This document shows positions 5,107-39,463 of a stretch of 52,429 nt of DNA, piece after piece. Numbering within the stretch: the stretch's first letter is position 1; every line of letters starts with the position of its first letter. The position numbers and the translations under genes are program-made. The notes beneath the pieces were generated by a model that saw only the letters and a list, made by a program, of their open reading frames with translations, was not told the DNA's origin and did not search any database. Source of the stretch: a virus (taxonomy: Duplodnaviria > Caudoviricetes); the IMG/VR virus record IMGVR_UViG_3300032516_002092, positions 1 through 52,429 of that record; one strand, 5' to 3'.

Positions 5107-6515
5107 CAGAGACGCCCGTGGCACCCAGGCCCTGGCCCGAAGCCCAACAGATATTGCCGCCACTTTCGCAGAGCGAGCGCCAATCGCTGGCGGCTAGTAT
5201 CGCGCGGTCAGGTGTGCAACATCCAATCCTCACGCTGACAGATGGGCGTATCATCGATGGCCATCACCGTTGGGAGTTGTCCAATGGCAAGGCGCCGATC
5301 GAGATTCGGGACTTGCCCGAAGAAGAAGCCCTAGCACTGGCGCTGGCACTGAACATCGCCCGCCGGCAGTTGTCGCCCGCGCAGTTGGGGGAAGTACAAG
5401 AGCGCTTGCGGAAGAGTGCCGAGCTTCGGAAGCAGACAGCGCTGAAACTGCGCGACCAGGGCATGACTCAAGAGCAGACGGCGGCAACGGTTGGGGTTAC
5501 ACAATCAACCGTACACGAGTGGGAAGAGCAAGCGAGGATACAGGGCGGAAGCAATATCAAAATCGATAATGCTTCCCATTCCGAACCTCCCGCTTCGAAA
5601 ACTTCTCTGCCCCCCGATCTACGCACCACGGTTCCCGCACATGAGAAGGAGCGCATCTATGAGCGGGTGCTGGCGGGTGAGAGTCACGAAGCGGTCGCAG
5701 CCGACTATCACATAACGCGACGGCGGGTGGGGCAGATCGTCAAGGATCTGGCGAAAGAAGAGCGTCGGCGGGAGCGGGAAGAGGAGCGAGTGAAGCCGCC
5801 GGCAATCGTCAAGCCTTCCCCTACTCTCCACCAAGCCAGAGCAGAGGCGCTACCAATCGCTGATGAGTCTGTGGACGTGATCATCACTTCGCCGCCCTAC
5901 AACCTGGGGGACGGCGATTGGCCGATGGGCGGTGAGGGGCGCACCCCACGCGAGCAGGGTATCGGGTATGAGGACGCCAAGCCCGAAGCAGAGTACCAGA
6001 CCTGGCAGGTGCAGGTGTTCCGTGAGCTGTACCGGGTGGCCAAGCCAGGCGCCAGCTTCTTCTACAACCACAAGTGCCGGCAGCGGGACGGTCGAGTTAT
6101 TCACCCGATGGACTGGATTCGTCACCCTGACAACCCGTGGATTCTGCGTCAGGAGATCGTCTGGGACCGGGGCAGCACGCATAACCATTCGCCGGCGCTG
6201 TTCTGGCCCGAGGATGAGCGCATCTATTGGATGACCAAAGGTAGGCCCGTTATCCCAGAAGGGGGAATAGCGCAACCTTCCGTGTGGCGCCTTTTCGGGC
6301 CGGTTCCGAACACTTGGCACCCGGCGCCCTTCTCCGACGAGCTGCCCAAACGCTGCCTGCAAGCTATAGGCCGACCGGGAATTGTAGTGCTAGACCCCTT
6401 CGGTGGCAGCATGACAACCTGCAAGGTTGCCCTGGCTATGGGCTACGAGGCAATCGGTGTAGATGTGTGCGCCGAGTATGTGAACCGAGCCAAGGGGGAA
6501 AACGGGTGGAATTAG
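5103..6515 (+). CDS. ParB-N/HTH-DNA methyltransferase fusion (beta-class N4/N6 methylase)
   Basis: IIDGHHR ParB motif; HTH QEQTAATVGVTQSTV; TSPPY catalytic motif preceding HPAPF and VLDPFGGS. Confidence 0.85.
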   Translation: MTETPVAPRPWPEAQQILPPLSQSERQSLAASIARSGVQHPILTLTDGRIIDGHHRWELSNGKAPIEIRDLPEEEALALALALNIARRQLSPAQLGEVQERLRKSAELRKQTALKLRDQGMTQEQTAATVGVTQSTVHEWEEQARIQGGSNIKIDNASHSEPPASKTSLPPDLRTTVPAHEKERIYERVLAGESHEAVAADYHITRRRVGQIVKDLAKEERRREREEERVKPPAIVKPSPTLHQARAEALPIADESVDVIITSPPYNLGDGDWPMGGEGRTPREQGIGYEDAKPEAEYQTWQVQVFRELYRVAKPGASFFYNHKCRQRDGRVIHPMDWIRHPDNPWILRQEIVWDRGSTHNHSPALFWPEDERIYWMTKGRPVIPEGGIAQPSVWRLFGPVPNTWHPAPFSDELPKRCLQAIGRPGIVVLDPFGGSMTTCKVALAMGYEAIGVDVCAEYVNRAKGENGWN

Positions 6516-11876: not shown

Positions 11877-11906
11877 TTGACATCGAGTGAAGATGTGCGG
11901 TATAAT
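11877..11906 (+). promoter_or_regulatory. Sigma70-type promoter upstream of HTH-tnpB
   Basis: TTGACA (11877-11882), 18 bp spacer, TATAAT (11901-11906). Confidence 0.75.
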
Positions 11907-11941
11907 AGTGACTAGTAGAAGATACATAAGGGAGGGTGGGC

Positions 11942-12154
11942 ATGAACCCGATTGTGACTCTTCGGAAGAGTCTGGGGATGACGAGAGTGGAGGCCGCACA
12001 GAAGATGGGCGTCTCCTACCAGGACCTAACGCTTTTGGAGAACGGATACCCACTGTATCTGCCGGGCCGAGTCATGGACGCGTTACCGAAGCTGGGCGCC
12101 AACTCCGAGCTAATCGCGGCCGAGTACAAGGCGTGGCGAGAGGCGAGGGGGTAG
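11942..12154 (+). CDS. XRE-family HTH regulator
   Basis: LRKSLGMTRVEAAQKMGVSYQDLTLLENG; GGGAGG RBS. Confidence 0.8.
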   Translation: MNPIVTLRKSLGMTRVEAAQKMGVSYQDLTLLENGYPLYLPGRVMDALPKLGANSELIAAEYKAWREARG

Positions 12155-12159
12155 AGGCC

Positions 12160-13377
12160 GTGCTCAGGGCGTATCGCACGGAACTGGATCCCAACAATGC
12201 GCAGCAGACAGTGTTCGTTCGCCATGCTGGGGCCGCGAGATTCTGTTTCAACTGGGCACTGGCCGACAGGATCGAGCGGTTCAAGGCGGGCCAACCGACC
12301 AACCACTACGAACAGAAGAAGCGGTTCAACGCCCTGAAGAAGGAGCAATTCCCCTGGCTCTCCGAGGTGGCGTACAAGGTCCAGGAGCAAGGCCTCGCCA
12401 ATCTGGACATAGCCTACAAGAACTTCTTCCGCCGGGTCAAGAGGGGCGAGGTCAAGAAGGGGTTCCCCCGATTCAAGTCGCGCAAACGAGGGCTAGGCGG
12501 GTTCACTCTACGGGGCAACCTCACCGTCGAGCGGCAGCGTATCAATCTGCCGGTAATCGGTTGGGTGAAGATCAAGGAGGCAGGCTACCTTCCGCAGGCA
12601 GACGTGAGGGTTCTATCAGCCAATGTCTCTGAGCGGGTGGGGCGTTGGTTTATCAGCCTCCAGGTAGAGCAGGAGACCGCACAGCCAAAGCCCGCCACCG
12701 GTCCATCCATCGGCGTGGATGTGGGGCTGAAAGTGCTGGCGGTGTGTTCGGATGGGACCGTGTTCGAGAATCCGAAGACGCTGAAGCGCAATGAGGCCCG
12801 GCTAGCGCAACTTCAGCGGGAGATGTGCCGACGCCAGAAGGGAAGTAAGAACCGAGCCAAGACGCGACGCAAGGTGGCCAAGCTGCACTTCAAGGTCGCC
12901 AACATTCGCAAGCATACCATCCACCAAGTAAGCCACTACCTGACGGCGAAAGCCAAGCCGCAGACGGTGGTAATCGAGGATCTGAACGTCAAGGGCATGA
13001 TGCAGAATCGGAAACTGAGCAAGGCGATTGCGGACGCCTCCTGGGGCGAGCTTCGGCGGCAGTTGGAGTACAAGGCGGCCTGGTATGGCGTGGATCTGGT
13101 GGTGGCTGGACGATTCTACCCGAGCAGCAAGACGTGCTCGGCCTGTGGGAACGTCAAGCCTTTACTGCGACTCTCTGAGCGAACCTTTGTCTGCGAGGCG
13201 TGCGGGATGGTTCTGGACCGCGACGCTAACGCATCGATCAACCTCCAGAACCTCGCCGCTAAACGGGCGGTGGCTGCCTGTGGAGGGAGTATAGGTCCAG
13301 GTGCAAGCCTGGCGGTTCCCGGTGAATCAGGAACTCGGCAGGCACTCGGTCACAAGTCCGAGAAGTTGGGAGGGTAG
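12160..13377 (+). mobile_element. tnpB: TnpB RNA-guided endonuclease (IS200/IS605/IS607 family), no TnpA nearby
   Basis: LRAYRTELDP..., GAARFCFNWAL, GFPRFKS, RuvC GVDVG / IEDLNV / DRDANAS, zinc ribbon PSSKTCSACG..CEACG. Confidence 0.92.
13200..13355 (+). ncRNA. Probable omegaRNA/reRNA overlapping tnpB 3' end
   Basis: GCCTGTGGAG...GTGAATCAGGAA resembles the usual tnpB right-end scaffold; boundaries are inferred. Confidence 0.45.
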
Positions 13378-18385: not shown

Positions 18386-19558
18386 ATGGCTAAGGCACCG
18401 GCGATCAGGGACCGAATCAAGGATCTGCGGCGGGTACGGGCCGGCGACCTTCTGCCCGAGCCTCGCAACTGGAGACGACACCCCAAGGCGCAAAGTGACG
18501 CCTTACTTGGCGTGCTTCGTGAGATAGGCTACGCCGATGCCCTCCTGGCCCGGGAGACGCCCGAGGGCCTGATGCTCATCGATGGCCACCTCCGGGCCAG
18601 TTTGACGCCGGATACGCTGGTGCCGGTCCTGGTCCTGGACGTGACCGAGGCCGAAGCGGCGACCATCCTCGCAACGCTGGATCCTCTCGCCGCAATGGCC
18701 CAGGCCGATAAGTCGGCACTGGACGCCCTGCTCAGAGACGTGAGCACTGGCGAGGCGGCGGTGCAGAAGATGCTGGCGGACCTTGCCAAGCAGAGTGGGC
18801 TCGATTACGGCGAGGAGCCAAAGCCTGACCCCGGCTCGCAGATTGACCGAGCCGAGGAGTTGCGGGAGAAGTGGCAGACAGAGCGGGGGCAGTTGTGGCT
18901 TGTCGGGAAGCACCGCCTGCTTTGTGGCGATAGCACGAAGGCAGAGGACGTGGCCCGGCTGATGGACGGGGAGCGGGCGGTAATGCTCTGGGCCGACCCT
19001 CCGTACTCGCGCGACTACGAGAGCCGTGGGGCCAAGGGCGATTGCGTGTCAACTGGAAGATGGGCAGCCATTTTGAGCAGCTTGGCGGGTTGGACCGCTC
19101 GGATTGGCAGTTGGTATGTGAAGCTGCCCTGGTACGACGCTGTAATCGCAGTGCCGGTACTAAGGCCGAAGCATCTTATCGTATGGGCAAAGCAAGGCTT
19201 TGGGCTTGGTAGGGGGGATTTTCGCCCCCAACATGAGATGCTTCTCTATGGGCGCGAGGGCGGCGTGTGTAACGCTGGCGCTGACCTGGGTGATGTCTGG
19301 ACATTCGCTGTCCCGTTCCGTGGCAGGATGCACCACGTCGCAGAAACGCCGACGCCGCTCATAGTGCAAGCTGTTGAGGTGAGTAGCCAACCCGGAGACT
19401 TGGTAGTCGACCCGTTCGCCGGAAGTGGTACTGCTCATGTCGCTGCAGAGCAACTCGACCGTGTCTGCTACGGCATGGAGATCGAGCCGAAGTACGTCGC
19501 CGTGTCCCTTCAGCGTATGGCCGACATGGGGCTCACGCCCAAGCTGGCCGATGCTTGA
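18386..19558 (+). CDS. ParB-N + DNA adenine methyltransferase
   Basis: PRNWRRHP, LIDGHLR, HRLLCGDST, ADPPY, VDPFAGSGT, MEIEPKY. Confidence 0.88.
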   Translation: MAKAPAIRDRIKDLRRVRAGDLLPEPRNWRRHPKAQSDALLGVLREIGYADALLARETPEGLMLIDGHLRASLTPDTLVPVLVLDVTEAEAATILATLDPLAAMAQADKSALDALLRDVSTGEAAVQKMLADLAKQSGLDYGEEPKPDPGSQIDRAEELREKWQTERGQLWLVGKHRLLCGDSTKAEDVARLMDGERAVMLWADPPYSRDYESRGAKGDCVSTGRWAAILSSLAGWTARIGSWYVKLPWYDAVIAVPVLRPKHLIVWAKQGFGLGRGDFRPQHEMLLYGREGGVCNAGADLGDVWTFAVPFRGRMHHVAETPTPLIVQAVEVSSQPGDLVVDPFAGSGTAHVAAEQLDRVCYGMEIEPKYVAVSLQRMADMGLTPKLADA

Positions 19559-22303: not shown

Positions 22304-23713
22304 ATGCCGGATAACGGCAGCATCCAAACCGAAGAGGACCTGGCCCTGGCACTGGCTGAGAAAGCGAAGCCCGACGCCGCGAAATATTCGATCCAAGGTC
22401 GTGCTGAGGCTGCCGAGACTTTGCAGCCGCTCGTCTGGTATATCTCCGCGTCCGCTGACGAGATCCCCGCTTACTGGTCGGCTGCAAGAGACGTCTCGCT
22501 CCGCAAGTTTTGGAAGACAGAGAGCATCCTGGCGGGCGCCATCTACTCGCAGGTGGCGAAGATCAAGACGCTGGGCTGGACACTTGACGGACCACAGCGC
22601 CAGGTCAACCGCTACCAGCGTATGCTGTCCGAGGCCGAGTTCGGCAACGGCTGGGGCGTCCTGATCAGCAAAGTGGTCGAGGATTATCTCTGCCAGGATC
22701 GTGGCGCCTTTGTCGAGGTCATCCGTGCCAGCAAGGACGCTACCGGCCCGGTGATCGGCCTGGCGCACCTGGATGCCAGTCGCTGCATGCCAACCGGCGA
22801 CCTGGAGTACCCGGTCGTCTACGCCAACGCTCGCACGGGCCGTCCTCACAAGTTGGCCGACGCCCAGGTTATCCACCTCCCCTCCCTGCCCTCCCCCGAC
22901 GAGTCCCTCAAGAATATCGGATTCTGTGCCGTTTCCCGTGTGTTGCGTGCTTCGCAGATTCTCCGCGACATCGTCACCTACAAGCGCGAGAAGTTGAGTA
23001 GCCGTCCCCAGCGGGGCATTGTGTTCGTGCAGGGCATGTCGCAGCACCGGCTGAACGCCGCCTTTGCCGAAGCACAAGAGCAGATGGACAATGAGGGGCT
23101 GACCCGCTTTGCCAAGGTTGTCACGATTGCCAGCCAGGACCCCGGCCAGCCGCTGGACATCAAGTCCTTCGACTTCGCCAGCCTGCCCGATGGCTACGAT
23201 GAGCAGACTACCACCACGCTCTACGCCTACATCGTGGCGTTGGCCTGTGGCACAGATGCGAGGGAGTTCTGGCCCGCGACGGCCAGTGGTGCTACCAAGG
23301 CCGATGCGCAGGTGCAGGCTCAGAAGGCGCGGGGCAAGGGGTCGGGGGATATCCTGACCAGCATCGAGCGGGCCATCAACTGGAAGGTGCTACCCGACAG
23401 TCTCACGTTCCGGTTCGACTTCCAGGATGACGAAGAGGACGCGCAGAAGGCGGCGCTGGAGGGGGCCCGCATCGGCAACATCGTCAAGATGTACTTCCCA
23501 GGCGCTGGCGTGGAGGGCCTGGTGAGCAAGGCCGAGGCCCGGCAGTTGCTGGCCGACCAGCAGATCCTGCCGCCGGAGTTCTTGGCCAACGAGCCTGACG
23601 TGACGCCGAACGTCATCGCTGACGACGTAGAGCAAGAGGAGGCGCCGGAGCCGACTGAGCCGGTGGCGGCTGAGGCGCCAGCGACCGATGAGACGCCAGT
23701 TGAGGAGTCCTGA
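22304..23713 (+). CDS. Portal protein
   Basis: 469 aa between terL and MuF; D....D.GAFVEVIR, IGFCAVSR, acidic tail. Confidence 0.8.
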   Translation: MPDNGSIQTEEDLALALAEKAKPDAAKYSIQGRAEAAETLQPLVWYISASADEIPAYWSAARDVSLRKFWKTESILAGAIYSQVAKIKTLGWTLDGPQRQVNRYQRMLSEAEFGNGWGVLISKVVEDYLCQDRGAFVEVIRASKDATGPVIGLAHLDASRCMPTGDLEYPVVYANARTGRPHKLADAQVIHLPSLPSPDESLKNIGFCAVSRVLRASQILRDIVTYKREKLSSRPQRGIVFVQGMSQHRLNAAFAEAQEQMDNEGLTRFAKVVTIASQDPGQPLDIKSFDFASLPDGYDEQTTTTLYAYIVALACGTDAREFWPATASGATKADAQVQAQKARGKGSGDILTSIERAINWKVLPDSLTFRFDFQDDEEDAQKAALEGARIGNIVKMYFPGAGVEGLVSKAEARQLLADQQILPPEFLANEPDVTPNVIADDVEQEEAPEPTEPVAAEAPATDETPVEES

Positions 23714-26700
23714 GTTGGTGCGTGTTCGCTACGACCCCCGGGGCGGCGTCGTGCCGGGTGCTGGCATAGTCAGTGCGGCCGACCTGGAGCGCCTGTTTGG
23801 GCCGACTGTCAGAGTGGCCTACAAGGCGGGTACCGGTACTGATGAGAAGTTCAACCCCTACCACGGTCGCGATGGCCGGTTCAGCTCGGGCGGTAATACT
23901 GTTTCAGGTAGTAGCGTAAGCCAGGCGTTGATCGCAGGCGAGAGTAAGATCCGGGACCTGCCCCATGAGAGTGCGTTCGCGTTAGACGCTTCGGGGAGGA
24001 GGATCTTCGAGAAGATCGGTGAACCTGAGGGGGTCGATATCACGCCTACGGAGGCTGCGACCCTTCGGGGATCAACGTTTTCCCATAACCACCCGCCGGG
24101 GTCGTTGTCAGGTTTCTCTGCCGGTGACATCACGTTTGCAGGCAAGTACGGGTTGGCAGAGATGAGGATGGTCGACCAGAGCGGTCGGTACTCACTCCGG
24201 TCTGGTTCTGCCTCCGGGTGGAACTCCTCAAGATTCTCGCCAGAGTCGGTGCCGAGCACCATCTCACGGGCTCGAACGTCAGTTATTGAAGAGTGGACCG
24301 AGGGAAAGCTACCTGCGTCTGAACGTCACCCGGTTAGTGAACAGCAGTACCTCCGTGAGGAGACGATGAGTCGTGTGGCAAAAGCCATCGGTGCTGAGTT
24401 CACAGTGACCCGTTGGTCCGGCATTGGGAAGAAGGCATCGACTGTTACCCAGAACCTACCACTCCCGGACGACGTCGAGGAGGTGACCGCTGCACTCGAA
24501 CGCCGGTTCGAGAAGGCGGTCCTGGCCGGGTTTGAGGTAGTGCAGCGCCAGATCGTCGCCGTCCTCACCAAGTACGCCAATGAGCAGCCGCCACTGCCCA
24601 GCGAGCCCGTGCTGCTGGGCAAGGCGCTGGCTGCATTTGGGGCCAAGGCTGATGGCGAAGAGGTGCCCACCGAGGCTGATAGCTTCTGGGCGCTGATTGA
24701 GCGGGAGCTAGAGCGCTGGTTCTTCCCCGAGATTGTGAACGCTGCCCAGGCGGGCATCCAGAGTGCGGCCAGTGCGCTGCAACAGATTGGGATGGGCATC
24801 GACTGGGCTCTGGTCAACATCCCGGTGCTGAAGTGGTCGAGGCTGCATGCTGCCGAGACGGTACGCGGGATAACCGCCACCACCAGGTCGGCGGTCCGGG
24901 AGCTGATCGTGGCCTGGCAGGAGCAAGGGCTGGGCAAGCGGGGGCTACCGGATCTGATCAAAGCGCTAGAGCCCATCCTGGGGAAGAGCCGGGCCGAACA
25001 GATCGGTATCACCGAGGTGACGAGGGCATTCGCTCAGGGCAACGAGGAATCCTACCGGGAGGTGCCGGGAGCAGTCGGGCAGCGGTGGCATACGGCCAGG
25101 GACGATAGGGTGTGTTTCCCCGAAAATACCCTAGTTGCCACCGCAACAGGGGCAGCCCCGATACAAGGGATTCGGCCTGGGGATATGGTGTGGACCCGCC
25201 AGGGGCTGAGGCAAGTTCTCTCTGTTAGCAAGCGTTCATACACCGGGCCGATGGTGACGATTGCGGCAGGATGGCACACCGTCACCGCTACACCTAACCA
25301 CCCCTTCTGGACGTTAGAGCAGGGATGGCTGGAGGCACGGTATCTCCAGGTTGGTCACACTCTGCAATCGCTCGGCAATCAGTCGATCCAGTTGGGCTGT
25401 GCGCTCAATCTCCAGGTCGGTGATTCTGACCACCTGCCAGCCGTAGGTCTGGAGATAACGGGTCTTCCTCGCATCCTTGGCGGCGTCCCTGTGCCAGTAG
25501 ACGCCATCGACTTCCAAGACGACACGCAATGCCGGCAGCAAGAAGTCTACGCAGTAGCGCCCAATCTTGGTTTCTTGCGAGAACGGGATGCTCATAGCGG
25601 TAAGTGTCTGGCGCATCTGCTTCTCAGGGATCGTCTCCCCTTGAAAGCGGCGGTAGCAGGCAAAGCTGCAAAACTGGCGTTCCGTGTTGCCAGGGCATAT
25701 GTGATACTCCTTGCCGCAGTTGCGACAGTTGATTGCGTGCGGCGGGCGACGGCATTCCTCCGAACAGTAGTGTCGGTTCAGTCGCTTCTCACCCACAAAG
25801 GGCTTGCCGCAGCGTTCACACGTCTGATACTTGGTGAAGGCAGTTCGGCATGCTCGGCTACAAACGGTATAGCGACTGGCGTAGATTCGATTGACGGAAA
25901 AGGCGCGGCCGCATACTGGACAGACCTTCTCCGTCATCTCTGGCGCCCGATTCGCCTCATAACACTCATGGCCACAGAAGCGGACGCCGCGCTGGTAGTA
26001 GGATGCACTGGGCTGAAAGGTTCGCCCACACCGTTCGCATATGGCCGTGGGCGTCTTTCTGCACGCAGCGTGGTAGCATTCGGAGGAACAGAAGACTCGC
26101 TTACCACGAACCGGTTGATGTTTGATGGCAGGTTTCCCGCAACGGCTACAGGTATACGTGAAGGCCACGGCAATCACCTCGCGACTATTATACCACAAAG
26201 GGGTCTAGGGCGGTACGCCACTGTATACAACCTAGAAGTCGAGGGTGAGCCCGAGTACTATGCCAATGGCCTACTGGTTCATAACTGTTCTGGTTGCGCC
26301 CCCCTCGACGGCAAGTGGATCGAGTTTGGTGGCGACTTTCGCACGCTGATACCCGACAAGGAGGTCCGGGACAGCTACAAGAAGACGTGCCAGGTGCCGC
26401 CACTGCACAACCGGTGCCGGTGCAGGCAGACGTGTGTTATGTCTGGTGCTGGGAAGGCGCTGGACGATGGGGAGAAGTTCAACCCGTACCACGGAGCCAA
26501 TGGCCGGTTCTCTTCTAGTGGTGGCGCTACGTCGGTTCACGTTGTTAGCGATATCTCCCAACTGGCACCAGAGCCGGTAATGCCCTCATTCCCAAATGGC
26601 CAACCGACTACCATGGGTGCTAGTAGCTCTCCTGAGGTGCTCAAAGCTTTCAACTCTGAGTTACAGTCTGCGTTTGACAAGTCTCCGGTGCTTTACCGGG

Positions 26701-27206
26701 GTACGTCTTGGAGCGGTGCGGAGAGTCAACTTCAGACGATGGAGCAGACTGGCAAGCTGACCTCTGGTGGATGGGTCATGGGTGAGCGTCGGGCCGAGGG
26801 AACATCTTCTCGGGTCTCACTTACTGTTAGTCCGCAAGTCGCTTCGACGTTCGGGAGTAACAACTTTCAGTCCGACGCGGTTGTGTTCGAGTTTCACAAG
26901 TCTAAGCTGCAGGGTAGCGTTCGTCCGGTTACCTACCAACCAGGAGCCTCCAATTCAATTATGTGGGAGCGGGAGGTCGTCGGCGAGGGTGTCCGAGCGA
27001 ACAGCAGTTCCATCAAACGTGTGATCGTCCAGAAGGTTTCGACCAACCTATTTGCTACTCCGGCTGACGCACGAGAGGAGTTGGCTACCGCGACTGCGTT
27101 TGCGAACTCGTTACGCACCCGGTTCAAGGTCCCCGTGGCGGTCGTTCATGTGTCGGAGATCGTCAAGGCCGACAAGGTGCCGTTCGACCCCGACAAGGTG
27201 TACTGA
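23688..27206 (+). CDS. MuF-like minor head protein with N-terminal JAB-like domain, intein and C-terminal ADP-ribosyltransferase-like domain
   Basis: RAEQIGITEVTRA, WHTARDDRV|CSGCAPLDG..PPLHNRCRC after intein removal; SHNHP...FSAGD; LYRG..SLT..EREV. Confidence 0.85.
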   Translation: MRRQLRSPELVRVRYDPRGGVVPGAGIVSAADLERLFGPTVRVAYKAGTGTDEKFNPYHGRDGRFSSGGNTVSGSSVSQALIAGESKIRDLPHESAFALDASGRRIFEKIGEPEGVDITPTEAATLRGSTFSHNHPPGSLSGFSAGDITFAGKYGLAEMRMVDQSGRYSLRSGSASGWNSSRFSPESVPSTISRARTSVIEEWTEGKLPASERHPVSEQQYLREETMSRVAKAIGAEFTVTRWSGIGKKASTVTQNLPLPDDVEEVTAALERRFEKAVLAGFEVVQRQIVAVLTKYANEQPPLPSEPVLLGKALAAFGAKADGEEVPTEADSFWALIERELERWFFPEIVNAAQAGIQSAASALQQIGMGIDWALVNIPVLKWSRLHAAETVRGITATTRSAVRELIVAWQEQGLGKRGLPDLIKALEPILGKSRAEQIGITEVTRAFAQGNEESYREVPGAVGQRWHTARDDRVCFPENTLVATATGAAPIQGIRPGDMVWTRQGLRQVLSVSKRSYTGPMVTIAAGWHTVTATPNHPFWTLEQGWLEARYLQVGHTLQSLGNQSIQLGCALNLQVGDSDHLPAVGLEITGLPRILGGVPVPVDAIDFQDDTQCRQQEVYAVAPNLGFLRERDAHSGKCLAHLLLRDRLPLKAAVAGKAAKLAFRVARAYVILLAAVATVDCVRRATAFLRTVVSVQSLLTHKGLAAAFTRLILGEGSSACSATNGIATGVDSIDGKGAAAYWTDLLRHLWRPIRLITLMATEADAALVVGCTGLKGSPTPFAYGRGRLSARSVVAFGGTEDSLTTNRLMFDGRFPATATGIREGHGNHLATIIPQRGLGRYATVYNLEVEGEPEYYANGLLVHNCSGCAPLDGKWIEFGGDFRTLIPDKEVRDSYKKTCQVPPLHNRCRCRQTCVMSGAGKALDDGEKFNPYHGANGRFSSSGGATSVHVVSDISQLAPEPVMPSFPNGQPTTMGASSSPEVLKAFNSELQSAFDKSPVLYRGTSWSGAESQLQTMEQTGKLTSGGWVMGERRAEGTSSRVSLTVSPQVASTFGSNNFQSDAVVFEFHKSKLQGSVRPVTYQPGASNSIMWEREVVGEGVRANSSSIKRVIVQKVSTNLFATPADAREELATATAFANSLRTRFKVPVAVVHVSEIVKADKVPFDPDKVY
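25314..26168 (-). CDS. Zinc-finger repeats + DUF559/Vsr-like endonuclease nested antisense inside the intein
   Basis: Five CxxCG...(F/Y/V)CxxxC repeats; E..M...L....IPF.QE..IGRYCVDF....VVLEVDGVYWH...KD..KT.YL...GWQVVRI; GAGGTG RBS 6 nt before GTG. Confidence 0.88.
   Translation of the reverse strand: MAFTYTCSRCGKPAIKHQPVRGKRVFCSSECYHAACRKTPTAICERCGRTFQPSASYYQRGVRFCGHECYEANRAPEMTEKVCPVCGRAFSVNRIYASRYTVCSRACRTAFTKYQTCERCGKPFVGEKRLNRHYCSEECRRPPHAINCRNCGKEYHICPGNTERQFCSFACYRRFQGETIPEKQMRQTLTAMSIPFSQETKIGRYCVDFLLPALRVVLEVDGVYWHRDAAKDARKTRYLQTYGWQVVRITDLEIERTAQLDRLIAERLQSVTNLEIPCLQPSLL
26175..26196 (-). promoter_or_regulatory. Extended -10 promoter and RBS for the antisense endonuclease
   Basis: Minus strand reads GTGG-TATAAT-AGTCGC-GAGGTG-ATTGCC-GTG. 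Confidence 0.7.
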
Positions 27207-31423: not shown

Positions 31424-31648
31424 GTGAAGAAGGTGTTGGTGCAGTACGGGGGCACCTCGTGCCGCAAATGCGGTCAGCAGGGCTCACCCATCGAGGCCGT
31501 CGCCGTAGAGCACGGTATCGAGGATGTCGAGTTTCACCCGGACCGGGTGGTGGTCAACGGCGTGGAGGGTCCCGCCGTGTTCCCGCGGCCGGTAGGGTTT
31601 GTCAGGGTGAAAGCCGACGATGGGCAGCAGCAGCGAGGTGCTAAATGA
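31424..31648 (+). CDS. Hypothetical protein
   Basis: AAGGAG RBS, GTG start, overlaps next gene. Confidence 0.55.
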   Translation: MKKVLVQYGGTSCRKCGQQGSPIEAVAVEHGIEDVEFHPDRVVVNGVEGPAVFPRPVGFVRVKADDGQQQRGAK

Positions 31649-32673
31649 GCCGAGAGGGCAATCGCAAAGAGCAGCACGGCCGGGGCTGGCAGCTCGAGGG
31701 CAAGGTCCTGGTGACCGGTGGGACGGGGTCACTAGGCCAGGCCATCGTGCGGCGAGCCAAGCGGGACCGCTGGCCAGTCGAGTTCACCATCTTGTCCAGG
31801 GACGAGGTCAAGCAGGGGCAGATGCGGGCCATCTACCCGCAGTGCCGTTACCTCCTGGGTGACGTGCGGGACATGGACGCCCTGGAGATCGCGTGCCGAG
31901 GCCAGGACATTGTCATCCATGCCGCCGCCTATAAGCAGGTGCCGACCGCTGAGGTGAACGCACATGAAACGGTCAAGACGAACGTTTGCGGGTCGTGCAA
32001 CGTAGCTATGGCGGCTGTGCGAGCCAACGTCAAACAGGTGATCGGGATCTCGACCGATAAGGCGTGCTCACCAGTCAACCTGTACGGAAAGAGCAAGGCC
32101 ATCATGGAGGCCGTCTTCCAGCAGGCCAATACCTGGGGCGACACCCGGTTCTCCCTGACTCGCTATGGCAACGTGGTGGGCAGCCGGGGCAGCATCATCC
32201 CGCTGTTTCAGAAACAGGCGGCAGCAGGGCAGTCGCTCACCGTGACCGACCGGCGCATGAACCGCTTTTGGCTCTCGCTCCAGGACGCCGTAGACCTGAT
32301 CGTCCAGGCATGGCGGGAACCGGGGGCCGGGACTATCGTGGTGCCGAAGCTCCCTAGCATGTTGGTCGTGGACCTGGCCCGGGTGGTATGGGAGATGCAC
32401 GGGTCACTCCGTGGGGCAGCCCTGCCGGCGTACATCGTCGACATCGGCATTCGCCCGGGTGAGAAGATCGACGAGCACCTCCTCCATCGGGGCGAGTCGC
32501 TGCACACTGAGGACCGTGGCGAGTTCTATCGTGTGTACCCGGCGTCGTCGGGTTACCACGGGTGCCTGCCGGATGGGTTCGAGTATCGCACAGACACCAC
32601 GGAGCTGCGGCTATCGTACGGCGGCATGCAGAGCATGATCCGGGAGAGTGAGCAGGAGGAGCAGGATGTCTGA
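31645..32673 (+). CDS. UDP-GlcNAc 4,6-dehydratase (PseB/CapD-like, Polysacc_synt_2)
   Basis: VTGGTGSLG, SRDE.KQ, GDVRD, HAAAYKQVP, STDKA..PVNLYGKSK, RYGNVVGSRGS, GIRPGEK. Confidence 0.92.
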   Translation: MSREGNRKEQHGRGWQLEGKVLVTGGTGSLGQAIVRRAKRDRWPVEFTILSRDEVKQGQMRAIYPQCRYLLGDVRDMDALEIACRGQDIVIHAAAYKQVPTAEVNAHETVKTNVCGSCNVAMAAVRANVKQVIGISTDKACSPVNLYGKSKAIMEAVFQQANTWGDTRFSLTRYGNVVGSRGSIIPLFQKQAAAGQSLTVTDRRMNRFWLSLQDAVDLIVQAWREPGAGTIVVPKLPSMLVVDLARVVWEMHGSLRGAALPAYIVDIGIRPGEKIDEHLLHRGESLHTEDRGEFYRVYPASSGYHGCLPDGFEYRTDTTELRLSYGGMQSMIRESEQEEQDV

Positions 32674-36698: not shown

Positions 36699-36851
36699 AT
36701 GAAGGTCTGGGTGGTTCTGGTTGGGTGGGATGTGGCAGGCATCTACGCTACAGAGGATATGGCAAAGGCTAAGAAGGACGCAGAGGTGGCGGAGGGCGTC
36801 CATTTCTGTATCCGTATTCAAGAACATGTCATCTCGGGGGCACCGGAGTGA
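36699..36851 (+). CDS. 50-aa protein, single copy of the VW...GIY module
   Basis: MKVWVVLVGWDVAGIYATEDMA...; AGGAGG RBS; GTGA overlap with next gene; below the ORF-track size cutoff. Confidence 0.6.
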   Translation: MKVWVVLVGWDVAGIYATEDMAKAKKDAEVAEGVHFCIRIQEHVISGAPE

Positions 36852-39463
36852 AGCGCCTATACGTGGCCCCCCAGTTCGACAAGCCGGACGCCGCCGATGG
36901 TGGCATCCGCCGGGTAGTAGAGGCTCAGGCCCGCTACCTGCCCGATCACGGCTGGGTCATCATCCAGGACCCCTACTCGGCTGACTTGGTGGCCTGCCAC
37001 GCCGGCACCTACTGCGACCGCAACATTGACGCCGCCTGGGTGGCCCACTGCCACGGGCTCTACTGGGGCGCTGAGATGGAGTTCGGCCAGTGGGCAACTG
37101 AAGCCAACGCCCACGTCATCATCAACCTCAAGCGGGCCGACGCCATCACCGCTCCCTCCGAGTGGGTGGCACAGTCCATTCGCCGGGGACTCTGCACGGG
37201 TGTGGATGTCATCGGCCACGGGATCGAGCCCGACGAGTGGGATCTCGGCCAGAGCCAGGGCTACGTGCTCTGGAACAAGGCCCGGCAGGATGTCGTTTGT
37301 GACCCCGCCGAGATGAACAAGCTGGCGGCGATGTGCCCGGACGTCAAGTTCCTGAGCACGTTCGGCCAAGAGCGAACAAATGTCAGCATCATGGGCAAGG
37401 TGCCCTACGACTCCATGCGGGAGACCGTCAGGAACGCTGGCGTCTACCTCTGCACCGCACGGGAGACCTTTGGCATCGGCACCCTGGAAGCGATGGCGGC
37501 GGGCGTACCCGTCCTGGCGTGGCGGCACGGTGGGCAGGTTGACATCATCCAGCACCAGGAGCATGGGTGGCTCTCGACGCCGGGCGACTATGACGACCTG
37601 GCCCGGGGCCTTCGCTACTGCCTGGCCAACCGGGCACGGCTGGGGGCGGCGGCTCGGGATCATGTCCTGACTCGCTACCTCTGGCGGGATGTCATTGCCA
37701 GGTATGCCCAACTCTACGACCGGGTGTTGGCCAGGGGGCAACAGGACCATAGCGGCCCCAAGGTCTCGGTCGTCGTCACCTGCTACAACCTGGCCCAGTT
37801 CTTGGGCGAGTGCCTGGAGTCCATTCGCAAGCAGACGATGTTCGACTGGGAGTGCATCATCGTCGACGATTGCAGCCCGGACAATACGCCCGAGGTGGCC
37901 GCCGACTGGACGGCCAAGGACCCGCGCATCAAGTATGTTCGCAACGAGACCAACCAGTACCTGGCCGAAGCTCGCAACGTGGGCATCCGGGCCAGCCATG
38001 GCCAGTACATCCTGTGCCTGGACGCCGACGACATGCTGGAGCCCAGAGCCCTGGAGATCCTGTCTGAAGCACTCGACCGGAACCATTCTATCGACATCGC
38101 CTATGGCCACATGGAGGCCTTCTACCCCGAACGTCGGGATGGCAACCAGCGGGAGCGGGGCGACTGGCCCACGGCGTTCCGGATGGAACAGCAGATGGCA
38201 GGCCGTAACCAGCTCCCGTACGCCAGCATGTACCGGCGCCGGGCTTGGGAGCGGGTGGGTGGCTACCGACAGCACATCCGCACCGCGGAGGACGCCGACT
38301 TCTGGTGCCGGGTGACCGGCTATGGGTTCAAGCCCGCTAAGGTGACCGAGGCGGTCTTCCTGGTCAAGCGGGAACTTACTCGCAGCATGAGTCGGGTAGA
38401 GCCGGTCAGTCGGGACTGGCGAGACTGGGCACCCTGGGCACGCAACCCACGACTGGCGCCGTTTGGTGCCGTCCTCTCCTCCACCCAGCGGGAAGAGCGG
38501 CACGCCTGGCCCGTCCGGTCGCACGCCAAGCCCCGATTCTCAGTCGTCATCCCGGTGGGGCCCGGCCACTCGAAGGCGGTCATCAAGGCCATTGACTCCG
38601 TAGTAGCGCAGACAACGCCCGACTGGGAAGCCATCATCGTCAACGACACCGGCGGCGACCTGTCGCTGCCCGGCTTCCCGTTCGCCAAAGTCATCACCAC
38701 GTCCGGCAAGGCCGGTGCAGGTGCCGCTCGCAACGCTGGGGCGAAGGTGGCGCTGGGCCAGTTCCTGACCTTCCTGGACGCCGACGACTGGCTGCACCCG
38801 GAGTTTCTGCGGACCTGCTCGCAGGTCTGGAAGGACCCGCACGAGTACGTCTACACCAACAGCATGAACGTCCGGGGAGCGACCATCGAAGAGTTCGACC
38901 CTGGTGACATCACCAGTCAGGACCATCTGAAGGAGTCCAAGCACCCGGTGACGACGCTGCTGCCGAGGCAGGCGTGGGTAGATGTCGGCGGGTTTGACGA
39001 GGTGATGCTGGGGTGGGAGGACTGGGATTTCTACATCGCCTTGGCGGTGGCGGGTTACGTTCCGGTGCACCTGCCGACCGTGCTGGTGGCCTACGACCTC
39101 TACTCCGGCGAACGCCGGGAGGCTGCCATAGCGGCCAAGGCGAAGTTGATCCCGTACCTGCATGAGAAGTGGTTTGACTACATCGAGGGGAACAAAGAGA
39201 TGGGCTGTGGCAGTTGTGGACGGAGGGCTAGTGCTCCACCCCCGGTAGCGCCGGTTACTGATAACGTGCAGTCGAGTATCCCGGTGGCCGGTGGCGCTGT
39301 CGACCAGATGGTCATGATCGAGTACGCCGACCCCCGGCAGGGGGATCACTTGGTGTTTGGCCGGGCTACTGCGACCAAGTACGGTATTCGCTCGCAGGGT
39401 GACCACTTTTATGTCGACCCCCGCGATATCGCCATCGAGCCGGCGCGGTTCCGGGTGGCATGA
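36848..39463 (+). CDS. Multidomain glycosyltransferase (GT4 + GT2 + GT2)
   Basis: ETFGIGTLEAMAAGVPV; VSVVVTCYN..IVDDCS..LDADD; FSVVIPV..LDADD..GWEDWDF. Confidence 0.9.
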   Translation: MKRLYVAPQFDKPDAADGGIRRVVEAQARYLPDHGWVIIQDPYSADLVACHAGTYCDRNIDAAWVAHCHGLYWGAEMEFGQWATEANAHVIINLKRADAITAPSEWVAQSIRRGLCTGVDVIGHGIEPDEWDLGQSQGYVLWNKARQDVVCDPAEMNKLAAMCPDVKFLSTFGQERTNVSIMGKVPYDSMRETVRNAGVYLCTARETFGIGTLEAMAAGVPVLAWRHGGQVDIIQHQEHGWLSTPGDYDDLARGLRYCLANRARLGAAARDHVLTRYLWRDVIARYAQLYDRVLARGQQDHSGPKVSVVVTCYNLAQFLGECLESIRKQTMFDWECIIVDDCSPDNTPEVAADWTAKDPRIKYVRNETNQYLAEARNVGIRASHGQYILCLDADDMLEPRALEILSEALDRNHSIDIAYGHMEAFYPERRDGNQRERGDWPTAFRMEQQMAGRNQLPYASMYRRRAWERVGGYRQHIRTAEDADFWCRVTGYGFKPAKVTEAVFLVKRELTRSMSRVEPVSRDWRDWAPWARNPRLAPFGAVLSSTQREERHAWPVRSHAKPRFSVVIPVGPGHSKAVIKAIDSVVAQTTPDWEAIIVNDTGGDLSLPGFPFAKVITTSGKAGAGAARNAGAKVALGQFLTFLDADDWLHPEFLRTCSQVWKDPHEYVYTNSMNVRGATIEEFDPGDITSQDHLKESKHPVTTLLPRQAWVDVGGFDEVMLGWEDWDFYIALAVAGYVPVHLPTVLVAYDLYSGERREAAIAAKAKLIPYLHEKWFDYIEGNKEMGCGSCGRRASAPPPVAPVTDNVQSSIPVAGGAVDQMVMIEYADPRQGDHLVFGRATATKYGIRSQGDHFYVDPRDIAIEPARFRVA

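What the first reader, a model, noticed from the sequence alone, without database searches (positions are those of the whole stretch)
25113..26285. Intein whose endonuclease is a separate antisense gene with its own promoter
Seen: a canonical Hint intein (C1, TPNH block B, HN|C end) interrupts the MuF motif DDRV|CSGC. Where a LAGLIDADG or HNH domain normally sits, the sense translation shows no recognisable motif. The minus strand (26168-25314) instead encodes 284 aa of CxxC zinc-finger repeats plus a DUF559/Vsr-like nuclease, preceded by TGgTATAAT and a GAGGTG RBS. The two frames are codon-aligned, so the nuclease gene must avoid TTA/CTA/TCA codons to keep the intein open, and its 3' end overlaps the Hint N-terminal part. 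Knowledge: intein endonucleases are normally in-frame domains. Inference: an inverted homing endonuclease that can be expressed independently of the late structural gene, for example during DNA replication. I do not know of a described example.
Basis: partly seen in the sequence, partly recalled or inferred. Interest (0 to 1): 0.88.

Follow-up and report, generated by a model that had tools for sequence, protein, structure and literature searches.

The report
Intein carrying an antisense homing-endonuclease gene
A self-splicing protein insert in a phage head gene carries its DNA-cutting mobility enzyme as a separate gene on the opposite strand, a real, widespread but recently described arrangement.

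Summary
ORF 23688-27206 (+) is a MuF-like head-morphogenesis gene. It is interrupted at DDRV|CSGC by a 391-aa class-1 intein (25113-26285). The intein's Hint fold is complete (Z 21 to solved inteins). Its central ~265 residues have no predicted structure.

That centre is the codon-aligned antisense of a 284-aa gene (26168-25314, minus strand). The gene encodes a CxxC zinc-finger array plus a Vsr-like/EDxHD nuclease: DUF559 46.7 bits, I-Bth0305I E 4e-17, model pLDDT 92.8.

The arrangement recurs. Of 76 distinct related loci, 52 keep the antisense frame free of stops, at 30-68% GC. Substitutions fall on nuclease third positions. An extended -10 element precedes the nuclease start in 20 of 38 loci, against 0.5 expected.

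At least nine relatives are free-standing and converge on the 3' end of intein-less MuF genes.

A 2025 preprint (Gosselin, Arsenault, Gogarten) reports anti-sense Vsr-like endonucleases in full actinophage inteins, with minor capsid among the host proteins of its non-canonical inteins.

Verdict: real, and a new member of a recently described kind. Expression, splicing and cleavage are untested.

The parts
23688..27206 (+). MuF-like (SPP1 gp7-type) head-morphogenesis / minor capsid gene, 1172 aa precursor including the intein
   Evidence: One open frame. The N-extein hits PHROG head-morphogenesis families (phrog_2468, E 6.3e-14), and the match ends at residue 475, the insertion point. Pfam Phage_Mu_F scores only 18.9 bits, under the 29.6 cut-off, on the interrupted protein. 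Intein-less relatives beside free-standing nucleases score 40.6-59.6 bits.
25113..26285 (+). Class-1 intein, 391 aa: Cys1, TPNH block B, C-terminal HN, +1 Cys
   Evidence: In the 36-intein alignment A2, C1, T60, H63, H390 and N391 are invariant. The model matches solved inteins and BIL domains: Z 21.0 (2lwy) and 20.4 (gp41-1 6riz), with 123-127 residues aligned at rmsd 1.2-1.6.
25113..25415 (+). Hint N-terminal part (intein residues 1-101)
   Evidence: pLDDT 90-97 in the AlphaFold2 model.
25419..26210 (+). Sense-frame insert (intein residues 103-366) with no fold of its own; it is the mirror reading of the nuclease gene
   Evidence: Most of residues 103-366 have pLDDT under 50 (segments 103-133, 149-153, 155-366). 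No Pfam domain. Sense-frame codon position 3 has GC 0.54, against 0.684 for the antisense frame.
26214..26285 (+). Hint C-terminal part (blocks F/G: ...VYNLEVEGEPEYYANGLLVHN)
   Evidence: pLDDT 88-98. The most conserved block of A2.
25314..26168 (-). Antisense homing-endonuclease gene, 284 aa from GTG 26168 (the stop-to-stop frame reaches 26204; TTG 26198 is an alternative start)
   Evidence: 61 database homologues, the best at E 7.4e-101. Model pLDDT 92.8. No TTA, CTA or TCA codon.
25656..26150 (-). Array of CxxC...CxxxC zinc-ribbon/zinc-finger units (P0002 residues ~17-181); presumed DNA-recognition module
   Evidence: Cys pairs are invariant or nearly invariant in A1. Weak zinc-finger Pfam hits. 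PHROG 'HNH endonuclease' families match this region only (phrog_1271, E 1.5e-17, residues 51-151).
25398..25640 (-). Vsr-like / EDxHD (DUF559) nuclease domain (P0002 residues 187-267), with E192, D218, E229, D231 and H236
   Evidence: Pfam DUF559 46.7 bits. The A1 profile matches 3r3p (I-Bth0305I catalytic domain) at E 4e-17. Foldseek: 3r3p E 5.9e-6, TM 0.70-0.77; also 3hrl, 1cw0 and 1vsr. The named residues are invariant or nearly invariant in 34 sequences.
25314..25415 (.). True dual-coding stretch: the nuclease C-terminal ~34 codons overlap structured Hint residues 68-101
   Evidence: The nuclease tail QPSLL* is the antisense of intein LEQGWL and recurs in relatives.
26187..26195 (-). Extended -10 promoter-like element, TGGTATAAT, 18 nt upstream of the GTG
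   Evidence: The only TGNTATAAT in the window. The equivalent element is conserved in relatives. No -35 match.
26175..26180 (-). Shine-Dalgarno-like GAGGTG, 6 nt before GTG 26168
   Evidence: Read from the sequence. An SD-like core lies 4-12 nt upstream of the start in 13 of 38 related loci.

Best explanation
A contiguous class-1 mini-intein sits in the zinc-knuckle motif (DDRV|CSGC) of a phage MuF-like head-morphogenesis protein. Its endonuclease-insertion loop holds a complete gene on the opposite strand: a homing endonuclease of the Vsr-like/EDxHD family, fused to an array of CxxC zinc fingers.

The two readings are in the codon-aligned antisense phase. In that phase the only nuclease codons that would put a stop into the host frame are TTA, CTA and TCA. 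All three have synonyms, so selection on the essential head gene can keep the host frame open without touching the nuclease protein.

The host frame therefore reads through about 265 residues of unstructured mirror sequence. This acts as a tether between the two Hint halves and is removed with the intein by protein splicing (inferred). The nuclease is transcribed from its own extended -10 promoter inside the intein coding sequence, independently of late head-gene transcription (inferred from conservation). It cuts intein-less MuF alleles, so that repair copies the intein and nuclease in (inferred by analogy with I-Bth0305I and with homing in general).

The element most likely arose when a free-standing endonuclease gene moved into a mini-intein at the nearby site, keeping its orientation. 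That gene lay convergent at the 3' end of MuF.
For: Shown.

1. Anatomy of the intein and the antisense ORF.

2. Hint fold. It is complete from residues 1-101 plus 368-391: Z 21.0 and 20.4 to solved inteins, 123-127 residues aligned. The insert has pLDDT under 50.

3. Nuclease.
- 61 homologues, the best at E 1e-101.
- DUF559 above the cut-off.
- A1 profile against 3r3p, E 4e-17.
- Fold match TM 0.70-0.77.
- Model pLDDT 92.8.
- Catalytic E/D/H positions are invariant or nearly so in 34 sequences.

4. Recurrence.
- 52 of 76 distinct loci scoring at least 100 bits have no stop in the codon-aligned antisense frame. The other two antisense frames of the same stretches have 3-41 stops.
- 39 of the 50 stop-free loci whose nuclease 3' end is complete, plus the window, show both splice junctions: D-x-R-V/T|C-F-P ... 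V-H-N|C-x-x-C.

5. Stop avoidance in AT-rich members. In L005 (30% GC), 13 forbidden codons are expected and 0 are seen, P 3e-8. L006 gives P 4e-4 and L001 gives P 2e-3.

6. Selection acts on the nuclease frame.
- L001 vs L111: differences at nuclease codon positions 1, 2, 3 are 16, 3, 61. There are 17 residue changes in the nuclease frame against 59 in the sense frame.
- L132 vs L134: 16, 12, 40 differences; 23 against 47 residue changes.
- A 296-nt relative of the window in a second run differs at 10 sites. Eight are synonymous for the nuclease and 2 for the sense frame.
- The antisense frame has the GC3 signature of a coding frame.

7. Promoter.
- TGNTATAAT is unique in the window and lies 18 nt before the start.
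- 29 of 38 loci have a -10 hexamer matching at least 5 of 6 positions within 50 nt upstream. Random positions give a mean of 3.0 and a maximum of 8.
- 20 of 38 are TG-extended. The control mean is 0.46 and the maximum 3.

8. Free-standing relatives. They converge on intein-less MuF genes and overlap them by 5-89 nt in L120, L122, L032, L145, L036, L151, L159 and L166, and also in L146. Three of those MuF genes were scanned (L145, L120, L036) and all pass Pfam Phage_Mu_F.

9. Conservation. The nuclease (mean identity 0.44) and the Hint parts (0.39) are more conserved than the flanking extein (0.33) over 465 pairs. They also co-vary, r 0.62.
Against: - No transcript, protein, splicing or cleavage data exist for this element. 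No RNA run holds the stretch.
- For the window alone, the open sense frame is only weakly improbable: P 0.06 and 0.016. This 63% GC genome has many long chance antisense ORFs, for example 555 aa at 36857-38524.
- The full sigma-70 scan finds no -35/-10 promoter here. The -10 lies only 18 nt from the start, so the leader would be very short.
- 9 of 38 relatives lack a recognisable -10. The start codons in that test were chosen by my own heuristic.
- The sediment run that holds the window shows no intein-less allele. That run consists of contigs only, which drop rare variants.
- Higher conservation of the element than of the extein may reflect constraint rather than mobility.
- The free-standing copies sit next to intact target-like sites (DERV-CPxC). 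The true recognition site is therefore unknown.
Confidence: 0.75

Rival explanations
1. The nuclease is a functional selfish gene but is not the intein's homing enzyme. It behaves as a free-standing endonuclease that targets the 3' region of MuF genes, and it uses the intein's loop only as a harmless landing place. The intein then moves, if at all, by hitch-hiking.
For: - At least nine relatives are free-standing at the 3' end of intein-less MuF genes. The family therefore persists without an intein.
- The intein-less neighbours keep an intact D-E-R-V-C-P-x-C site.
- Phage nucleases are known to mark recombination boundaries. I saw this only in the search listing for PMC10448857 and did not read the paper.
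Against: - Nuclease and Hint identities co-vary (r 0.62), more than either does with the extein.
- Embedded copies outnumber free ones: 52 against 24 loci, and many of the 24 are of unknown context.
- All 39 embedded loci with recognised junctions share the same MuF site.
Confidence: 0.14
2. This is a fractured gene with a split intein. MuF is made as two polypeptides that trans-splice, the nuclease gene lies between the halves, and the open sense frame is accidental.
For: - Vsr-like endonuclease genes between split-intein halves are the arrangement described by Dassa et al. 2009 (PMC2677866; passages read).
- The closest solved fold includes the gp41-1 split intein.
- The window's own open frame is only weakly improbable.
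Against: - There is no stop anywhere in 1172 codons.
- 52 of 76 loci keep the frame open, including loci at 30-36% GC where 7-13 stops are expected.
- In the fractured genes the endonuclease lies between two separate genes. Here the host reading frame is continuous.
Confidence: 0.04
3. The antisense ORF is a decaying relic. It was once a functional endonuclease but is now silent, and the intein is effectively a mini-intein with a long junk loop.
For: - There is no expression evidence.
- The homing-cycle model predicts decay after fixation. This is stated in the preprint's introduction.
- L139 appears to have a disrupted C-terminal splice block.
Against: - The ORF is intact.
- All catalytic and zinc-binding positions are kept.
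- 8 of 10 differences from a close relative are synonymous in the nuclease frame.
- The promoter-like element is conserved.
- Model pLDDT is 92.8.
Confidence: 0.06
4. The minus-strand ORF is a chance open frame in GC-rich DNA, and the real domain is in the sense insert.
For: The genome is 63% GC and has many long chance antisense ORFs.
Against: - DUF559 scores above its cut-off.
- 61 homologues.
- High-confidence fold.
- The sense insert has no domain and pLDDT under 50.
Confidence: 0.01

Closest known systems
Non-canonical actinobacteriophage inteins with anti-sense VSR-like homing endonucleases (Gosselin, Arsenault, Gogarten, bioRxiv 10.1101/2025.01.02.630785; abstract, sections 8 and 15 and passages read; supplements not seen)
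   Same: - A full (not split) intein whose endonuclease is encoded on the antisense strand between the splicing blocks.
- A Vsr-like/EDxHD nuclease related to 3R3P.
- A sense-frame insert without predicted structure.
- Minor capsid (MuF-type) among the host proteins of such inteins.
- Proposed origin by invasion of an intein by a free-standing endonuclease.
- I confirmed one actinophage case myself. Gordonia phage Malisha gene 5, between portal and scaffold, has ...SHDN|CFPAG...VHN|CKC with a codon-aligned antisense Vsr-like ORF.
   Different: - The window's element is a separate lineage. tblastn of the nuclease against 50,697 phage records gives 7 weak hits and none above 38.5% identity.
- Its nuclease carries a CxxC zinc-finger array. 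In Malisha the N-terminal part has no CxxC motifs.
- It sits at the first zinc knuckle of MuF (DDRV|CxxC), not the second (HDN|CKC).
- It comes from uncultured sediment and other metagenomes across 30-68% GC.
- The main text of the preprint does not contain the words 'promoter' or 'zinc'. In the parts I read, it does not treat stop-codon avoidance, the codon-aligned phase, or convergent free-standing copies at intein-less MuF genes.
Fractured genes: split inteins with a free-standing endonuclease gene between the halves (Dassa et al. 2009, PMC2677866; passages read)
   Same: An intein is associated with a separately encoded endonuclease of the then-new Vsr-like family. The element is phage or environmental in origin. 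The nuclease sits at the canonical endonuclease-insertion point of the Hint fold.
   Different: [quoted passage not shown] Here the host frame is continuous, the nuclease lies on the other strand, and the same bases are used in both readings.
[quoted passage not shown] 2011, PMC3239194; abstract and passages read; PDB 3R3P)
   Same: The catalytic domain is homologous (E 4e-17, TM 0.70-0.77). The Glu, Asp and His positions are conserved, including the Asp and His that were mutated in the crystal form.
   Different: I-Bth0305I is encoded in a group I intron of recA, in the sense orientation, with NUMOD/HTH-type DNA-binding regions. This protein has zinc fingers and lies antisense in an intein.
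Out-of-frame or anti-sense LAGLIDADG endonucleases in inteins (cyanobacterial dnaX intein: bioRxiv 10.64898/2026.09.14.751524, abstract and sections 14 and 17 read; Gorbalenya 1998, known to me only as cited there)
   Same: The endonuclease is in a reading frame other than the intein's. Purifying selection acts on the endonuclease frame and the intein frame is relaxed. Origin by secondary invasion of a mini-intein is proposed.
   Different: The nuclease family differs (LAGLIDADG). The dnaX case is described as a +2 frame. The host is a cellular replication gene.
Collaborative homing of free-standing endonucleases with endonuclease-less group I introns (Bonocora and Shub 2009; Zeng et al. 2009; recalled, not read here; the term appears in papers listed)
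   Same: A free-standing endonuclease gene next to a target gene and a nearby self-splicing element are thought to merge into one mobile unit. The convergent free-standing copies at intein-less MuF genes fit the 'before' state.
   Different: Those cases concern RNA introns, where no reading frame has to be kept open.

Membership tests
Intein (class 1, Hint fold) | N-terminal Cys/Ser1 and block B TxxH | tested here: met
   C1 and T60-P-N-H63. These positions are invariant in 36 aligned inteins.
Intein (class 1, Hint fold) | C-terminal His-Asn followed by a +1 Cys/Ser/Thr | tested here: met
   ...LLVHN|CSGC. TIGR01443 scores 21.5 bits against a cut-off of 15.6. H390 and N391 are invariant.
Intein (class 1, Hint fold) | Hint fold assembled from the N and C parts | tested here: met
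   VIA-align gives Z 21.0 (2lwy), 20.4 (6riz) and 19.2 (2imz), with 123-127 residues aligned at rmsd 1.2-1.6. pLDDT is 88-98 in those parts.
Intein (class 1, Hint fold) | Curated profile scores (Pfam Hint_2 / Intein_splicing; TIGR01445 N-terminal) | tested here: inconclusive
   Hint_2 scores 27.7 against 28.4. Intein_splicing scores 27.7 against 35.8. TIGR01445 scores 17.3 against 24.5. All are just under their cut-offs.
Intein (class 1, Hint fold) | Protein splicing activity | not testable with these tools
   Requires expression of the precursor.
Vsr-like / EDxHD homing endonucleases (DUF559, I-Bth0305I type) | Sequence membership of the nuclease domain | tested here: met
   PF04480 scores 46.7 bits against 20.6. 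The A1 profile matches 3r3p at E 4e-17 and 3hrl at E 5.5e-10.
Vsr-like / EDxHD homing endonucleases (DUF559, I-Bth0305I type) | Vsr-like fold | tested here: met
   Foldseek: 3r3p at E 5.9e-6 with TM 0.70-0.77; 3hrl with TM 0.75; 1cw0 and 1vsr with TM 0.48.
Vsr-like / EDxHD homing endonucleases (DUF559, I-Bth0305I type) | Catalytic Glu/Asp/His/Asp positions retained | tested here: met
   E192, D218 and D231 are invariant, and E229 and H236 are at least 90% conserved, in 34 sequences. D218 and H236 align with the two positions that read Ala in the 3r3p crystal mutant. I read the fourth Asp from the alignment by eye only.
Vsr-like / EDxHD homing endonucleases (DUF559, I-Bth0305I type) | Site-specific cleavage of the element-less allele | not testable with these tools
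   Requires purified protein and a substrate.
Non-canonical intein with anti-sense endonuclease (Gosselin et al. 2025 preprint) | Endonuclease ORF on the antisense strand between the splicing blocks of a contiguous intein | tested here: met
   The nuclease at 26168-25314 (-) lies inside the intein at 25113-26285 (+). The host frame has no stop.
Non-canonical intein with anti-sense endonuclease (Gosselin et al. 2025 preprint) | Sense-frame insert without recognisable structure, antisense product folds as a nuclease | tested here: met
   The insert has pLDDT under 50. The nuclease model has pLDDT 92.8.
Fractured gene / split intein (Dassa et al. 2009) | Host gene broken into two separate ORFs with split-intein halves | tested here: not met
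   One continuous 1172-codon frame. The same holds in 52 of 76 related loci.
MuF / SPP1 gp7 head-morphogenesis family (PF04233) | Profile match over the domain, including the CxxC...HxxCRC end | tested here: inconclusive
   The interrupted window protein scores 18.9 bits against 29.6, and TIGR01641 scores 15.8 against 39.65. The N-extein alone gives no Pfam hit but matches PHROG head-morphogenesis at E 6.3e-14, ending at the insertion point. Intein-less relatives score 40.6-59.6 bits.

The most novel reading that the evidence does not exclude
This MuF intein family preserves a living record of how an intein acquires an endonuclease.

The same zinc-finger/Vsr-like nuclease occurs in two states. 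In one it is free-standing, converging on and overlapping the 3' end of intein-less MuF genes. In the other it is embedded, in the same orientation, in a mini-intein about 40-60 codons upstream.

Once embedded, it keeps its own host-type extended -10 promoter written inside the intein coding sequence. In many members the -10 ends 5-8 nt before the ATG, which suggests leaderless mRNA. The conserved sense-frame 'LYH' is simply the mirror image of TGATATAA. The nuclease would then be made early and independently of the late head gene.

The codon-aligned antisense phase is the only phase in which all host-frame stops can be removed by synonymous changes. That would explain why every embedded member uses it.

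Neither the promoter nor the phase rule nor the convergent precursor state appears in the parts of the literature I could read.
Probability: 0.5. Interest if true: 0.62.

Novelty: new member of a known kind. Interest (0 to 1): 0.5.

Why it matters
1. Dual coding. About 855 bases are read on both strands. One strand is under selection for a protein. The other is under selection only to stay open, except for about 34 codons where both products are structured. This is a clean natural example of constrained dual coding.

2. Annotation. Gene callers report either the long host ORF or the nuclease, not both. Such inteins are therefore scored as decaying or as mini-inteins. I found 52 loci in three collections, so the architecture is common in environmental phages and is not an actinophage curiosity.

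3. Origin of endonuclease-bearing inteins. Free-standing and embedded copies of one nuclease family coexist at one host gene. This makes the "splicing first, endonuclease later" model directly testable.

4. Possible use. A nuclease with a modular zinc-finger array and a long specific target may interest those who engineer site-specific nucleases.

Tried and rejected
I did nothing further with it.
- No RNA holder is listed for the stretch, so expression could not be examined.
- Read laying on the two DNA runs showed no joint, meaning no intein-less allele. Both runs are contigs only, and one is probably the source of the window.
- The simple sigma-70 scan found no -35/-10 pair in 25000-26500. 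Only the extended -10 stands.
- megablast of the whole MuF gene against 50,697 phage records gave no match. No cultured close relative is available.
- Eight literature searches were run. The first five found nothing on antisense intein endonucleases. Only the sixth surfaced the 2025 preprint.
- PMC8966425, PMC9403480 and PMC6669764 were opened and proved irrelevant to the antisense question.
- dN/dS proper was not computed. Most relatives are 35-55% identical, so synonymous sites are saturated. I used position-specific counts on the two close pairs and on the X2 fragment instead.
- Pfam on the C-extein (26286-27203) and the N-extein gave nothing.
- I considered and rejected a chance ORF, a split intein and a real sense-frame domain. 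See the rival explanations.
- In the promoter count, 2 of 40 loci were dropped because my start-finding heuristic found no start codon.
- In the junction count, 11 of 51 stop-free loci lacked one or both junction motifs. Most are truncated contigs. L116 failed only my regular expression. L137/L138 show no intein motif at 64% GC and may be open by chance.
Full report
**What is there**

The window is a single 52,429-base contig at 63% GC. It carries phage-type genes. ORF 23688-27206 (+) is open for 1172 codons.

Its N-terminal 475 residues match PHROG head-morphogenesis families (phrog_2468, E 6.3e-14), and the match stops exactly at residue 475. There the sequence ...ARDDRV is followed by 391 residues that begin CFPENTLVATA, contain TPNH at residues 60-63, and end YYANGLLVHN. 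The host resumes with CSGC...HNRCRC.

This is the zinc-knuckle end of MuF/SPP1-gp7 proteins. Intein-less relatives found later score 40.6-59.6 bits on Pfam Phage_Mu_F, whose cut-off is 29.6. The interrupted window protein reaches only 18.9 bits.

The insert has the marks of a class-1 intein. TIGR01443 scores above its cut-off, and Hint_2 and Intein_splicing score just below theirs.

An AlphaFold2 model was built on 36 aligned inteins. Residues 1-100 have pLDDT 90-97 and residues 368-391 have 88-98. Most of residues 103-366 fall below 50. The confident parts superpose on solved inteins and BIL domains:
- Z 21.0 (2lwy), 20.4 (gp41-1, 6riz) and 19.2 (Mtu RecA);
- 123-127 residues aligned, rmsd 1.2-1.6.

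So the Hint domain is a complete mini-intein with a loop of about 265 residues that has no fold of its own. No LAGLIDADG, HNH or other domain is detected in the sense reading.

**The antisense gene**

On the minus strand, 26168-25314 (GTG start; the frame is open from 26204) encodes 284 residues.
- The first ~170 residues are repeats of CxxC...CxxxC.
- Residues 187-267 match DUF559 at 46.7 bits (cut-off 20.6) and weakly match Vsr.

The protein has 61 database homologues at E <= 1e-3 among 453 candidates. The best is at 7.4e-101, and most carry precomputed DUF559. A 34-sequence alignment has invariant cysteine pairs and invariant or nearly invariant E192, D218, E229, D231 and H236.

The profile of that alignment finds the catalytic domain of the intron homing endonuclease I-Bth0305I (3r3p) at E 4e-17. 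After it come the DUF559 structure 3hrl and Vsr.

The model has mean pLDDT 92.8. Its nuclease domain superposes on 3r3p (E 5.9e-6, TM 0.70-0.77), 3hrl and Vsr. D218 and H236 align with the two residues that Taylor et al. replaced by alanine in the crystal form.

The zinc-finger region alone matches PHROG families annotated as HNH endonucleases. This suggests a DNA-binding module shared among phage homing enzymes.

**Two readings of one DNA**

The frames are codon-aligned. Nuclease codon position 3 therefore pairs with host position 1. A host stop can arise only from the nuclease codons TTA, CTA or TCA. None occurs in 284 codons.

In the overlap, GC at the third position is 0.684 for the antisense frame and 0.54 for the sense frame. 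Real genes of this genome have about 0.72. The coding signature therefore belongs to the nuclease.

For the window alone, the absence of the three codons is not striking: P 0.06 with host usage and 0.016 with the gene's own composition. The genome also has many long chance antisense ORFs. The relatives decide the matter.

**Relatives**

Scans were run with the nuclease or its alignment:
- viral contigs, 30 loci;
- species-representative genomes, 79 loci;

I re-scored all 189 loci with tblastn. Keeping those at 100 bits or more with distinct nuclease DNA left 76 loci.
- 52 of the 76 have no stop in the codon-aligned antisense frame over the nuclease gene. The other two antisense frames of the same stretches hold 3-41 stops.
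- 24 of the 76 do have stops.

Of the stop-free loci, 50 have a complete nuclease 3' end. Of those, 39 show both junction motifs (...D-[DESN]-R-[VT]|C-F-P... and ...Y-A-N-G-x-L-V-H-N|C-x-x-C), as does the window. Intein lengths are 329-467 residues. Most of the other 11 are truncated contigs.

GC content ranges from 30% to 68%. In L005 (30% GC), host codon usage predicts 13 forbidden codons and none is seen (P 3e-8). L006 gives P 4e-4, L008 1e-3 and L001 2e-3. Selection is keeping the host frame open.

**Selection on the nuclease**

Two close pairs show where substitutions fall.

| Pair | Nucleotide identity | Differences at nuclease codon positions 1, 2, 3 | Residue changes, nuclease frame | Residue changes, sense frame |
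|---|---|---|---|---|
| L001 / L111 | 90.4% | 16, 3, 61 | 17 | 59 |
| L132 / L134 | 91.7% | 16, 12, 40 | 23 | 47 |

A 296-base contig from a second sediment run covers 25459-25754 with ten differences. Eight are synonymous for the nuclease and only two for the sense frame. In the same run the extein pieces are only about 86-90% identical. This is a weak hint of transfer: the contigs are at depth 2 and may come from different organisms.

Over 465 pairs of 31 loci, mean identity is 0.44 for the nuclease, 0.39 for the Hint parts and 0.33 for the flanking extein. Nuclease and Hint co-vary (r 0.62) more than either does with the extein.

**Promoter**

TGGTATAAT (26195-26187, minus strand) is the only TGNTATAAT in the window. 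The expected count is 0.11, and 9 of 100 shuffles have at least one match anywhere. It ends 18 nt before the GTG, with GAGGTG between them. The plain sigma-70 scan finds no -35/-10 pair.

In 38 related embedded loci (2 of 40 were dropped for lack of a predicted start):
- 29 have a -10 hexamer matching at least 5 of 6 positions within 50 nt upstream of the nuclease start. Random positions in the same loci give a mean of 3.0 and a maximum of 8 in 300 draws.
- 20 are TG-extended. The control mean is 0.46 and the maximum 3.

The elements fall into two position classes.
- The hexamer ends 5-8 nt before the ATG. This is the geometry of a leaderless transcript.
- The hexamer ends 29-35 nt before the ATG. 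In several of these an SD-like core lies 6-9 nt from the start.

The sense-frame motif LYH, conserved just before block F in many inteins, is the mirror of TGATATAA.

These are consensus matches. Their conservation argues for function, but no transcript has been seen.

**Free-standing copies**

I re-examined the 24 loci with stops. At least nine carry the nuclease as a separate gene that converges on an intein-less MuF gene and overlaps its 3' end by 5-89 nt: L120, L122, L032, L145, L036, L151, L159, L166 and L146. L152 has it downstream on the same strand, and L160 has it 292 nt away. The rest are short contigs or other contexts.

Those MuF genes keep the uninterrupted D-E-R-V-C-P-x-C...H-P-x-C-R-C motif, only about 40-60 codons from the stop. 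The orientation relative to MuF is the same as in the embedded state.

This is what one expects if a free-standing endonuclease gene beside its target moved into a nearby mini-intein. The 2025 preprint proposes this route in general terms.

**What is known**

Five literature searches found nothing on antisense intein endonucleases. The sixth surfaced Gosselin, Arsenault and Gogarten, bioRxiv 10.1101/2025.01.02.630785 (version of 20 Oct 2025).
- They report 63 non-canonical inteins among 784 in actinophages.
- The hosts of the non-canonical inteins are DNA polymerase, minor capsid, terminase and thymidylate synthase.
- The sense inserts are unstructured, and HHpred links the nuclease to 3R3P.
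- They credit Gorbalenya 1998 and Gogarten 2002 with anti-sense LAGLIDADG cases.

A 2026 preprint treats the out-of-frame endonuclease of the cyanobacterial dnaX intein and shows frame-dependent selection. A 2025 paper describes a hidden out-of-frame HNH gene in a phage methylase (abstract only).

The kind is therefore described. I confirmed one actinophage case, Gordonia phage Malisha gene 5. It differs from the window's element in three ways: the insertion point (second zinc knuckle), the nuclease's N-terminal part (no CxxC) and the sequence (only the nuclease domain aligns, at 38.5%).

The preprint's main text never uses "promoter" or "zinc".

**Verdict**

The element is not without precedent. 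It is a new, environmentally widespread lineage of a recently described architecture.

My analysis adds:
- the stop-avoidance statistics;
- the phase rule;
- a conserved internal promoter-like element;
- a ~34-codon stretch where both products are structured;
- the convergent free-standing state.

Transcription, splicing and cleavage remain to be shown.

Noticed in passing
L192 (Mycobacterium phage Malithi, NC_026605.1 about 37044-37832): Annotated gene 54 ('hypothetical protein') lies antisense to an intact 284-codon frame that encodes CxxC zinc fingers plus a DUF559-type nuclease, 26% identical to the window's nuclease. It sits between pieces annotated as DNA methyltransferase (genes 53 and 56/57). 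The codon-aligned opposite frame has 2 stops, and I saw no intein motifs. It may be a mis-annotated strand and a nuclease gene splitting a methylase.
   Followed up: partly
window 11887-13377 (+): A 496-aa ORF with OrfB_IS605, Cas12f1-like TNB and HTH_OrfB_IS605 domains. This is a TnpB-type transposon-associated nuclease in the same contig.
   Followed up: no
window 18386-19558 (+) and 5103-6515 (+): Two N6/N4 DNA methylase genes. In the first, only residues 295-373 match, and they match the second half of the profile (positions 134-218). The first ~290 residues are unexplained.
   Followed up: no
window 23841-23894 and about 26463-26520 (+): The MuF precursor carries the motif EKFNPYHG-x-x-GRFSS-GG twice, near its N terminus and just after the MuF zinc motif. 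Read laying also placed 26472-26494 at a second place in the source contig. Its function is unknown.
   Followed up: no
window 26286-27203 (+) and 23688-24700 (+): The 306-aa C-extein has no Pfam or PHROG hit. The N-terminal third contains SHNHPPGS...SAGD, which I recall resembles the RadC/JAB metal motif. MuF proteins with extra C-terminal effector domains are described in the literature as I recall it. Neither point was tested here.
   Followed up: partly
window 31645-32673 (+) and 36848-39463 (+): A polysaccharide-biosynthesis/epimerase gene and an 871-aa multi-domain glycosyltransferase lie downstream of the head genes. This is either host DNA flanking a prophage or phage-borne surface-modification genes.
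   Followed up: no
L139 (metagenome contig, intein C-terminal region): An embedded member has an intact N-terminal junction (DDRV|CFPAWT). After ...TIVYDLQD the C-terminal block is lost and no VHN|C follows. It may be a frameshifted or decaying copy.
   Followed up: no
L152 (metagenome contig 1-1417): This is the only locus seen where the nuclease gene lies downstream of an intein-less MuF on the same strand rather than convergent. Its N-terminal part is longer and begins with an HTH-like stretch.
   Followed up: no
window 36857-38524 (-): A 555-codon open frame lies antisense to the glycosyltransferase gene. It is an example of the long chance antisense ORFs of this GC-rich contig, and it is why the window alone cannot prove selection for the open frame.
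   Followed up: partly
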